Assembly: GCF_003334815.1 (NCBI RefSeq)
Contig: NZ_QOWO01000115.1
Length of the DNA: 869 nucleotides
Strand: one strand, 5' to 3'
Source: Escherichia coli
GTDB taxonomy: Bacteria; Pseudomonadota; Gammaproteobacteria; Enterobacterales; Enterobacteriaceae
Shown here in pieces: positions 1-869 of the stretch. The first letter of the stretch is position 1. Each line of letters starts with the position of its first letter. Made by a program: the position numbers and the translations under genes. Below the pieces are notes generated by a model. It saw only the letters and a list, made by a program, of their open reading frames with translations. It was not told where the DNA came from and ran no database searches.

Positions 1-76
1 CGCGGGGAAGTTCAGGCCGCTACGGCCTCTGCAACCGGCTTAGCGTGCTTTATTTTCCGTTTTCTGAGACGACCCC
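1..76. mobile_element. Terminal segment of a Tn3-family transposon (Tn5393-like or Tn21-like) inserted into the colicin gene; the body of the element lies beyond the left window edge
   Basis: Terminal inverted repeat at 39-76 plus 38 bp of GC-rich interior sequence at 1-38 (minus-strand read CCGGTTGCAGAGGCCGTAGCGGCCTGAACTTCCCCGCG). If the element is Tn5393-like, I recall its inverted repeats being about 81 bp, in which case all of 1-76 would be repeat; this cannot be confirmed from the window alone. Confidence 0.75.
39..76 (-). repeat. 38-bp terminal inverted repeat of a Tn3-family transposon (Tn21/Tn5393 subgroup); outer end at position 76, transposon interior towards position 1
   Basis: Reverse complement of 39-76 is GGGGTCGTCTCAGAAAACGGAAAATAAAGCACGCTAAG. 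The GGGG outer terminus, the internal ACGGAAAA motif and the inner TAAG are hallmark features of Tn3-family inverted repeats. The repeat begins exactly where the colicin-matching sequence stops, and composition shifts from AT-rich colicin sequence to GC-rich sequence at 1-38. Confidence 0.85.
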
Positions 77-869
77 TATGATGGTTTCTGTTTTAACAAA
101 AAGAGGACGCCAGTTCTCTGTCCGGACAGCCTTACCAAACTCAGTGATCCAGTCAGCAAGACTTGTAAATTTTCCTGCATATCCCAGTCCCCGACTGAAT
201 CTGTTCAGATTAGACGATATATCAGACAGCTTCACAGACTCAAGGGCTGCGGCAATCGCTGCACGATCTTTTGCATTAATTTTTTTGTTAATGTCAGCCC
301 GGTACTTTTCATACGTTTTTAATGCCTCTTCAACATTACGTATTTTCTTCCCTTTAGCCTGCCCGGCCATCTCTCTGGCTAACTGCTCAGCTTTTGCACC
401 ATATTTTTCTGAAACTGATTTCAGGAACTCTGTTGTGAAATTAATTGCGTCTTTCGTTGCCTTCAGTTCATCCTGTTTTCTTTTCTCTTCCGCTATCTTC
501 TGATTGATGCCGGAAAGCTGGTTACGGATATTCTCTTTTTCCTTCAACAGGGCATTAAGAGCGTCATTTGCATGCTTTTGCTCATTTGTTCTGGCACTGA
601 GGTTATTTCTCGCCGAATTTACCGCAGATTCAGCAGAGGTGATTTTATTTCTGGCATCAAGCAATCTTTGCCGTAACTTATCCCATTCAGCAACTTCAGC
701 ATTATAAATTTTCTTGTCACCTTCCACATCCTCTGTCACCACCGGATTCTGGTCATTCAGAATATTGCGTTTATAGTCCAGACCGGAATGGCTCAGAAGA
801 TAATTCAGGTTTGCACGGTTATCGATGACTGCGCTGGTTGTGATTTTTATCGTACCGGCAAATCTCGGA
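50..869 (-). CDS. cia: Colicin Ia-type pore-forming colicin, partial: N-terminus lies beyond the right window edge; 3' end truncated by transposon insertion at 76/77, so the last 8 codons (GVVSENGK) and the TAA stop (50-52) come from the transposon inverted repeat. Probably a non-functional (pseudogenised) colicin.
   Basis: The minus-strand frame is open from 868 to the stop at 50-52 (my translation of 743-868 gives PRFAGTIKITTSAVDINRANLNYLLSHSGLDYKRNILNDQNPV with no stop, continuing into the supplied ORF). The 'M' at 740-742 in the ORF track is a GTG valine codon. The translation (...VTEDVEGDKKIYNAEVAEWDKLRQRLLDARNKITSAESAVNSARNNLSART...KDAINFTTEFLKSVSEKYGAKAEQLAREMAGQAKGKKIRNVEEALKTYEKYRADINKK...NWRPLFVKTETII) matches my recollection of colicin Ia and differs from colicin Ib at the positions where I recall those two diverging. 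Canonical colicin Ia continues ...ETIIAGNAATALVALVFSILTG... to ...KFWGI; here the frame instead reads GVVSENGK then stops. Confidence 0.88.
   Translation of the reverse strand, partial: PRFAGTIKITTSAVIDNRANLNYLLSHSGLDYKRNILNDQNPVVTEDVEGDKKIYNAEVAEWDKLRQRLLDARNKITSAESAVNSARNNLSARTNEQKHANDALNALLKEKENIRNQLSGINQKIAEEKRKQDELKATKDAINFTTEFLKSVSEKYGAKAEQLAREMAGQAKGKKIRNVEEALKTYEKYRADINKKINAKDRAAIAAALESVKLSDISSNLNRFSRGLGYAGKFTSLADWITEFGKAVRTENWRPLFVKTETIIGVVSENGK

What the first reader, a model, noticed from the sequence alone, without database searches (positions are those of the whole stretch)
50..869. Colicin Ia gene truncated by a transposon, losing the hydrophobic hairpin of the pore domain
The colicin frame matches colicin Ia through ...NWRPLFVKTETII and then leaves the canonical sequence exactly at the transposon inverted repeat. 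By my recollection the missing segment is about 51 residues (AGNAATALVALVFSILTG...KFWGI), which contains the hydrophobic helical hairpin that anchors the channel in the inner membrane. A protein lacking it should retain the receptor-binding and coiled-coil regions but not form a functional pore, so the host has probably lost colicin killing activity.
Basis: partly seen in the sequence, partly recalled or inferred. Interest (0 to 1): 0.8.

Follow-up and report, generated by a model that had tools for sequence, protein, structure and literature searches.

The report
Colicin Ia gene cut by Tn21
A Tn21-type resistance transposon sits inside a plasmid colicin Ia toxin gene and removes the membrane-anchoring end of the toxin, an ordinary kind of gene disruption; the same genome also carries the pore-forming half of a colicin Ib gene and its immunity gene.

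Summary
Window 77-869 (minus strand) is 100% identical to the cia gene of IncI-type plasmids and encodes colicin Ia residues 312-575. Window 1-76 is 100% identical to the tnpA end of Tn21, including its complete 38-bp terminal inverted repeat (39-76). The reading frame leaves colicin Ia after I575, reads eight repeat-encoded residues (GVVSENGK) and stops at a TAA inside the repeat. Exactly 51 residues (576-626) are lost. They contain helices H8 and H9, the hydrophobic hairpin (580-612), and H10. Loss of pore formation by this product is well supported by the literature but was not tested here.

The window is a whole 869-bp contig, QOWO01000115.1, of assembly GCA_003334815.1. Its last 77 bases are identical to the first 77 bases of contig QOWO01000067.1 of the same assembly. 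That contig continues into colicin Ib residues 312-626, with a complete pore domain, and the Ib immunity gene. The genome therefore holds a second colicin I gene, so "the host has lost colicin killing" is not established.

This exact junction is absent from the plasmid, complete E. coli, reference-genome and metagenome collections searched. Colicin genes disrupted by Tn21-derived elements are already described. This is a new instance of a known kind, of low interest.

The parts
1..43 (+). 3' end of the Tn21-type transposase gene tnpA: last 13 codons, AGKFRPLRPLQPA, and the TAG stop at 41-43
   Evidence: 100% identical to the end of tnpA of Tn21 in R100 (WP_001138064.1 ends ...AGKFRPLRPLQPA*)
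39..76 (.). Complete 38-bp terminal inverted repeat of Tn21 at the tnpA end (IRtnp), read on the minus strand as GGGGTCGTCTCAGAAAACGGAAAATAAAGCACGCTAAG
   Evidence: 38/38 identical to R100 Tn21. cia homology stops at its outermost base.
50..76 (-). Repeat-encoded tail of the truncated protein, GVVSENGK, and its TAA stop (50-52)
   Evidence: Translation
77..81 (.). TATGA (TCATA in the cia sense), the 5 bp next to the repeat. This is the expected target-site duplication if the event was a simple Tn21 insertion. Not verified.
   Evidence: The position follows. The 5-bp duplication is a property of the Tn3 family (seen for Tn21 in R100 as TATTA at both ends). The other end was not found.
77..868 (-). 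cia codons 312-575: part of the Cir-binding R domain (about 647-868), the long helix leading to the pore domain (about 446-646), and pore-domain helices H1-H7 (residues 453-575, window 77-445)
   Evidence: 100% DNA identity to cia of NZ_CP024481 and others. PDB 1CII and 2HDI matches. Pfam PF11504 and PF01024. Domain limits from PMC2230624 and PMC2585860.
793..869 (.). 77 bases shared exactly with the start of contig QOWO01000067.1 of the same assembly, which carries cib. This is an assembly-graph branch point and explains why the contig ends here.
   Evidence: Identical prefix of exactly 77 nt, then divergence at base 78
792..792 (-). First base that distinguishes this cia copy (G in the gene sense, S337) from the co-resident cib copy (C, T337)
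   Evidence: Contigs in 14 other samples stop at this same site.

Best explanation
A Tn21-type (Tn3-family) transposon end is joined to the colicin Ia structural gene cia directly after codon 575. The most likely cause is transposition of the element into cia on an IncI-type plasmid.

The interrupted gene would encode a 583-residue product: colicin Ia residues 1-575 plus GVVSENGK. This product keeps the translocation and Cir-binding regions and pore-domain helices H1-H7. It lacks the H7-H8 loop, the H8-H9 hydrophobic hairpin and H10. The hairpin inserts into the inner membrane first, without needing a voltage, and supplies two of the four membrane-spanning segments of the open channel. The product should therefore be unable to form a channel or kill.

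This copy is the only copy of this cia allele in the genome. The same genome also carries a colicin Ib gene, at least from codon 312 to the stop, with its immunity gene, on an IncI1-like backbone.

Shown: the junction, the extent of the loss, and the second gene. Inferred: loss of pore activity, that the event was a transposition, and whether either gene is expressed.
For: Junction and sequence identities:
- cia is 100% identical over window 76-869.
- Tn21 is 76/76 identical over window 1-76.
- The break falls at the outermost base of an intact 38-bp repeat.

Extent of the loss:
- 51 residues, 576-626, are lost.
- Pfam PF01024 is covered only over model positions 2-137 of 185.
- In the crystal structure H8 is 580-594, H9 is 597-612 and H10 starts at 614 (PMC2585860).

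Assembly context:
- The window is the whole contig QOWO01000115.1 of GCA_003334815.1.
- Contig QOWO01000067.1 of the same assembly shares exactly 77 nt with it, then diverges into cib 312-626, followed by the Ib immunity gene and an IncI1-like backbone.
- Downstream of the branch, cia and this cib allele share no run of 77 nt or more. That explains why the window contig is unbroken from 77 to 792.

Precedent:
- A Tn21-derived resistance locus lies in the col operon of pO26-CRL125 and pO111-CRL115 (PMC3817090; confirmed on the sequence).
Against: - The other end of the transposon, the 5-bp duplication, the cia 5' end and promoter, and the Ia immunity gene are all outside the 869-bp contig.
- The protein predicted for a simple-insertion second junction is not on record.
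- Contig QOWO01000067.1 runs unbroken through the backbone that normally follows iia in cia plasmids. This argues against a simple insertion that leaves cia 3' end, iia and backbone in place.
- Loss of activity of a colicin Ia ending at residue 575 was not tested here, and I did not find a paper reporting that exact truncation.
Confidence: 0.9

Rival explanations
1. The junction is real but did not arise from a simple cut-in insertion. A Tn21-mediated adjacent deletion, an unresolved cointegrate or a later homologous recombination joined IRtnp to cia codon 575 and removed the cia 3' end and the Ia immunity gene. One possible outcome is a single plasmid in which a resistance region lies between a 3'-truncated cia and the cib-immunity module.
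For: - The cib contig (L018) passes without a break through sequence that is identical over 1930 nt or more to the backbone following iia in a cia plasmid (L001). A second copy attached to iia should have split the contig there.
- The product predicted for the second junction is not on record.
- The same cib allele lies next to Tn21-, Tn1721- and IS26-containing resistance regions in pO26-CRL125, pSTM32_108 and related plasmids.
- The published description of pO26-CRL125 notes missing direct repeats and invokes recombination (PMC3817090).
Against: - The argument depends on how the unknown assembler behaves. It also assumes that the strain's cia plasmid resembles L001 downstream of iia.
- The fragment predicted if the strain's cib were truncated at coordinate 174, as in pO26-CRL125, was not found.
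- L018's backbone beyond 1985 nt is like ColIb-P9, not like pO26-CRL125.
Confidence: 0.35
2. The contig is an assembly chimera that joins reads from an intact cia gene to reads from an unrelated Tn21 copy. In that case there is no truncated gene.
For: Both contig ends lie in repeated sequence, and only 76 bases of Tn21 are present.
Against: - The switch falls exactly at the terminal base of the 38-bp repeat, as expected of transposition and not of a random chimera.
- cia and the repeat share only one ambiguous base, far too little to mislead a 77-mer graph.
- No branch towards the cia 3' end exists within window 77-792.
- The index lists the contig in two samples.
Confidence: 0.03
3. The window protein is a complete, naturally shorter colicin, or a different colicin that ends at this point.
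For: None found.
Against: - It is 100% identical to cia up to codon 575.
- The reference colicins Ia and Ib are both 626 residues.
- The last eight residues and the stop codon are encoded by the transposon repeat.
- The Pfam pore domain is cut at model position 137 of 185.
Confidence: 0.01

Closest known systems
Colicin Ia (cia; PDB 1CII; WP_001619592.1, 626 residues) of IncI-type plasmids
   Same: 100% DNA identity over window 76-869. Residues 312-575 are identical to WP_001619592.1. There is one substitution (Q351 for R351) relative to the crystallised protein.
   Different: Lacks residues 576-626 (H7-H8 loop, H8-H9 hairpin, H10) and carries the foreign tail GVVSENGK.
Tn21, as in plasmid R100/NR1 (NC_002134), and its many integron-bearing derivatives
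   Same: The terminal 76 bp are identical, including the 38-bp IRtnp and the last 13 tnpA codons.
   Different: Only the terminal 76 bp are visible, so Tn21 itself cannot be told apart from its derivatives. The insertion site is not found in any record searched.
Tn21-derived complex resistance locus in the col operon of pO26-CRL125 and pO111-CRL115 (Venturini et al. 2013, PMC3817090)
   Same: A Tn21-family resistance region disrupts a colicin I gene on an IncI-complex plasmid. Its cib allele is 100% identical to the cib 3' part found in this assembly.
   Different: In those plasmids the 5' end of cib (coordinates 1-173) and the 3' end of yagA are deleted, and the junction is with a Tn1721 remnant. 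Here the 3' end of cia is lost at an intact Tn21 IRtnp.
Degraded bacteriocin genes and orphan immunity genes on E. coli plasmids (PMC12546727)
   Same: A toxin gene is inactivated while immunity genes may persist. That survey reports heavily truncated bacteriocin genes on plasmids.
   Different: Whether the cognate Ia immunity gene survives here is unknown, and it is possibly absent.

Membership tests
Colicin Ia (pore-forming colicin, Ia type) | Sequence identity to colicin Ia across the receptor-binding, long-helix and pore regions | tested here: met
   E = 7.5e-165 to 1CII. 100% identical to WP_001619592.1 residues 312-575.
Colicin Ia (pore-forming colicin, Ia type) | Ia-type rather than Ib-type C-terminal region | tested here: met
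   The window matches cia with no differences. The ColIb-P9 cib gene differs from cia at 271 nt and 118 residues, mostly after residue 427.
Colicin Ia (pore-forming colicin, Ia type) | Complete ten-helix pore domain with the H8-H9 hydrophobic hairpin (residues 580-612) | tested here: not met
   The frame ends at residue 575 plus 8 foreign residues. PF01024 is covered over model positions 2-137 of 185. Helix limits from PMC2585860.
Colicin Ia (pore-forming colicin, Ia type) | Cognate immunity gene iia, convergent and immediately downstream | tested here: inconclusive
   Not in the window. The product predicted for the displaced junction was not found. The unbroken cib contig argues against the usual iia context.
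Colicin Ia (pore-forming colicin, Ia type) | N-terminal translocation domain and SOS-regulated promoter | not testable with these tools
   The contig ends at codon 312. No 5' contig of this assembly was recovered.
Tn21 subgroup of Tn3-family transposons | 38-bp terminal inverted repeat of the Tn21 type | tested here: met
   38/38 identical to IRtnp of Tn21 in R100.
Tn21 subgroup of Tn3-family transposons | tnpA reading towards, and ending just inside, the repeat | tested here: met
   The last 13 codons and the stop are identical to Tn21 tnpA.
Tn21 subgroup of Tn3-family transposons | 5-bp target-site duplication and a second inverted repeat at the other end | not testable with these tools
   The other end is outside the contig. 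The look-up for the predicted junction product was negative.
Tn21 subgroup of Tn3-family transposons | tnpR/res, class 1 integron and mer operon inside the element | not testable with these tools
   Only 76 bp of the element are in the window.

The most novel reading that the evidence does not exclude
The junction is one edge of a compound rearrangement in which a Tn21-derived resistance region is flanked by two complementary colicin I remnants: cia lacking its 3' end and cib lacking its 5' end. The plasmid would then keep Ib immunity, make no active colicin, and carry an 0.8-kb direct repeat of colicin 5' sequence that could recombine. Alternatively, the SOS-induced 583-residue product, which still has the Cir-binding and translocation domains, could act as a non-lethal competitor for the Cir receptor.
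Probability: 0.1. Interest if true: 0.3.

Novelty: new member of a known kind. Interest (0 to 1): 0.15.

Why it matters
The finding matters mainly as annotation. The product should be labelled a truncated, probably inactive colicin Ia (cia::Tn21), not a colicin. In this isolate a 'cia-positive' call from gene screening would overstate bacteriocin capacity.

It is another documented case of a resistance transposon landing in the colicin module of IncI-complex plasmids. That region is already noted as a frequent insertion site.

The analysis also shows that contig ends in draft assemblies can reveal a second, related gene. Here a co-resident cib changes the phenotype one would predict.

Tried and rejected
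**Exact-junction searches.** A 30-nt pattern found nothing in genome contigs or metagenome contigs. No place covering the junction exists in PLSDB or in the 5,426 complete E. coli genomes.

**Exact-protein look-ups that found nothing.**
- The reconstructed 583-residue fusion.
- ColIb-P9-type cib residues 312-626. The right allele was found only after I predicted it from the 77-mer logic.
- The product predicted for the IRmer-TCATA-cia 3' junction.
- Residues 231-309, predicted if the two 5' regions formed SNP bubbles.
- Residues 59-336, predicted if the strain's cib were truncated at coordinate 174 as in pO26-CRL125.

**Other attempts.**
- The 1-336 product exists in 27 index blocks, but this assembly was not among the 14 contigs shown.
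- A literature search for the assembly accession found nothing.
- NCBIfam gave no specific colicin model.
- The colicin review PMC1847374 is not held.

**Readings rejected.**
- A natural short colicin.
- A second cia allele of the L016 type as the partner at the branch. It would share runs of 437, 152 and 82 nt with the window and should have broken the contig.

Full report
**What is in the window**

The minus strand carries an open frame from base 868 down to a TAA at 50-52. The ORF list shows only its internal GTG-started part, 50-742, because frames that run off the end are not listed. The product reads PRFAGTIKI...NWRPLFVKTETII followed by GVVSENGK.

Against solved structures, the first 264 residues match colicin Ia (1CII) at E = 7.5e-165. 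The only substitution is Q for R at residue 351. Weaker matches follow to colicin Ib, pyocin S5 and colicins E1, N, A, B and S4 over the pore domain only.

At the DNA level, window 76-869 is 100% identical to cia on many IncI-type plasmids of E. coli, E. fergusonii and Salmonella. I took NZ_CP024481 as the reference (L001: cia 626 codons, with the Ia immunity gene iia convergent 21 nt downstream). The window protein is residues 312-575 of that reference. The residues that follow in the reference, AGNAATALVALVFSILTGSALGIIGYGLLMAVTGALIDESLVEKANKFWGI, number exactly 51.

The gene is Ia and not Ib. The ColIb-P9 cib gene differs from cia at 271 nucleotides and 118 residues, concentrated after residue 427, whereas the window has no difference from cia.

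**The transposon end**

Window 1-76 is 76/76 identical to the tnpA end of Tn21 in plasmid R100. Bases 2-43 encode the last 13 residues of TnpA (AGKFRPLRPLQPA) and its stop. Bases 39-76 are the complete 38-bp terminal repeat (GGGGTCGTCTCAGAAAACGGAAAATAAAGCACGCTAAG on the minus strand).

Homology to cia stops at 76/77, the outermost base of the repeat. Base 76 fits both sequences. A break at exactly the repeat terminus is the signature of a transposition-derived joint. The eight extra residues and the stop codon of the truncated protein are encoded by the repeat itself.

From 76 bp one can say 'Tn21 or one of its derivatives' and no more.

**What the truncation removes**

According to Kienker, Jakes and Finkelstein (PMC2585860), the crystal structure assigns these residues:
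- 573-575: the end of helix H7
- 576-579: a loop
- 580-594: H8
- 597-612: H9
- 614 onward: H10

[quoted passage not shown] The other two segments (about 544-572 and 450-470) insert only at positive voltage.

The truncated product therefore ends at the last residue of H7. It lacks the membrane anchor, two of the four transmembrane segments and H10. Pfam agrees: PF01024 is matched over model positions 2-137 of 185.

Loss of channel formation and of killing is an inference from this established topology. I found no paper that tests a 1-575 protein directly.

**Where the window comes from, and why that matters**

An exact-protein look-up showed that the window is the entire contig QOWO01000115.1 of NCBI assembly GCA_003334815.1. 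Both ends are therefore assembly breaks.

The left end lies 76 bases inside a repeated element. For the right end, I noticed that base 792 is a site where cia and cib differ: G against C in the gene sense, S337 against T337. It lies exactly 77 bases from the contig end. Contigs in 14 other samples also stop at cia coordinates 1008-1010. This is what a 77-mer assembly graph gives when two genes share their 5' part and diverge at that base.

The ColIb-P9 allele did not fit, because it has two further differences inside the 77 bases. A cia allele with T337 (L016) did not fit either. It shares runs of 437, 152 and 82 nt with the window and should have broken the contig. A cib allele found on pMRY16-002_3 does fit. 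It shares exactly 933-1009 with the window copy and no later run longer than 69 nt.

Looking up residues 312-626 of that allele returned contig QOWO01000067.1 (7,586 bp, L018) of the same assembly. Its first 77 bases equal the reverse complement of window 793-869, and it diverges at base 78.

L018 carries colicin Ib residues 312-626, with a complete pore domain and hairpin. It also carries the 115-residue Ib immunity gene and an IncI1-like backbone: DUF6404, integrase, ParA, StbA/ParM and the start of impB.

**Consequences for the interpretation**

First, window 77-792 is single-copy in the assembly, so there is no intact copy of this cia allele.

Second, the genome holds a second colicin I gene whose pore domain is intact. 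'The host has lost colicin killing' does not follow. At most it has lost colicin Ia.

Third, I could not establish whether cib is complete at its 5' end. The same allele is full length in pEc631_1. It is cut at coordinate 174, next to Tn21-, Tn1721- and IS26-containing resistance regions, in pO26-CRL125, pO111-CRL115, pMRY16-002_3, pH2332-107 and pSTM32_108. Look-ups for the fragments predicted under either scenario were negative or uninformative.

Fourth, L018 runs unbroken through sequence that is identical for at least 1,930 nt to the backbone following iia in the cia reference plasmid. A second copy of that backbone attached to iia should have split the contig. The displaced cia 3' end and iia are therefore probably absent, or they lie in another context. 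The product predicted for a simple second junction is not on record either. I therefore give about one chance in three that the junction reflects a deletion, cointegrate or recombination event rather than a simple insertion with both flanks retained.

**Is it known?**

The exact junction was not found in any collection searched:
- PLSDB, 72,556 plasmids
- 5,426 complete E. coli genomes
- one genome per species in GTDB
- JGI metagenome contigs
- the protein-position index, which holds no record of the full 583-residue fusion

The kind of event is well documented. Venturini et al. (PMC3817090) describe a Tn21-derived complex resistance locus in the col operon of pO26-CRL125 and pO111-CRL115 that deletes the 5' end of colIb. 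They note that IS and other mobile elements are known to insert at this location in other IncI plasmids. I confirmed that truncation on the sequence. A recent survey reports heavily truncated bacteriocin genes and many orphan immunity genes on E. coli plasmids (PMC12546727).

This is a new instance of a known kind, with no new mechanism.

**Verdict**

The molecular interpretation is supported. The host-level inference is only partly supported, because of the co-resident cib. Interest is low.

Noticed in passing
window 793-869; L018 1-77 (QOWO01000067.1 of the same assembly): The window contig and a 7.6-kb contig of the same assembly share exactly 77 nt and then diverge. The other contig carries colicin Ib residues 312-626, the Ib immunity gene and an IncI1-like backbone. 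The isolate therefore has two colicin I genes that share 5' sequence.
   Followed up: yes
cia gene coordinates 1008-1010 (window 792-794); loci L005-L014, L026, L029, L031, L034: Contigs from 14 unrelated assemblies and sequencing runs stop at this same site, and two of them end with the cib base C. cia and cib alleles with identical 5' parts evidently co-occur often in one sample and split assemblies here.
   Followed up: partly
L021 19242 (pO26-CRL125); also L017, L022, L023: The cib allele found in this assembly is 5'-truncated at gene coordinate 174 in a lineage of IncK2/Z plasmids, next to Tn21, Tn1721 or IS26 resistance regions. PGAP names the remnant (WP_024174015.1, 424 residues) 'colicin Ia central receptor-binding domain-containing protein' without marking it as a fragment.
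   Followed up: partly
L007 about 5085 (GCA_013040505.1, AATPBZ010000065.1): A tetR-tetA-pecM-isochorismatase segment, apparently a Tn1721 remnant, is joined 41 nt upstream of the colicin start codon. It probably removes the SOS promoter. This is another mobile-element joint in the same module.
   Followed up: no
L018 1363-3292 against L001: The cib contig shares 1,930 or more identical bases with the backbone downstream of iia in a cia plasmid, yet is not broken there. This suggests that the Ia immunity gene in its usual context is missing from the isolate.
   Followed up: partly
window 749-751: Residue 351 is Q (CAG) in this allele and in many IncI plasmids. It is R in the crystallised colicin Ia (1CII, 2HDI) and in cib. 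The residue lies in the receptor-binding domain.
   Followed up: no
window 45-503, + strand: A 152-residue GTG-started ORF lies antisense to cia and starts inside the transposon repeat. It is a mechanical ORF with no support as a gene.
   Followed up: no
window 77-84 against R100 (L002 4077-4084): The bases just outside IRtnp are TATGATGG here and TATTATGG in R100, 7 of 8 the same. This made BLAST extend the Tn21 match to base 84. It may be chance or a target preference of Tn21.
   Followed up: no
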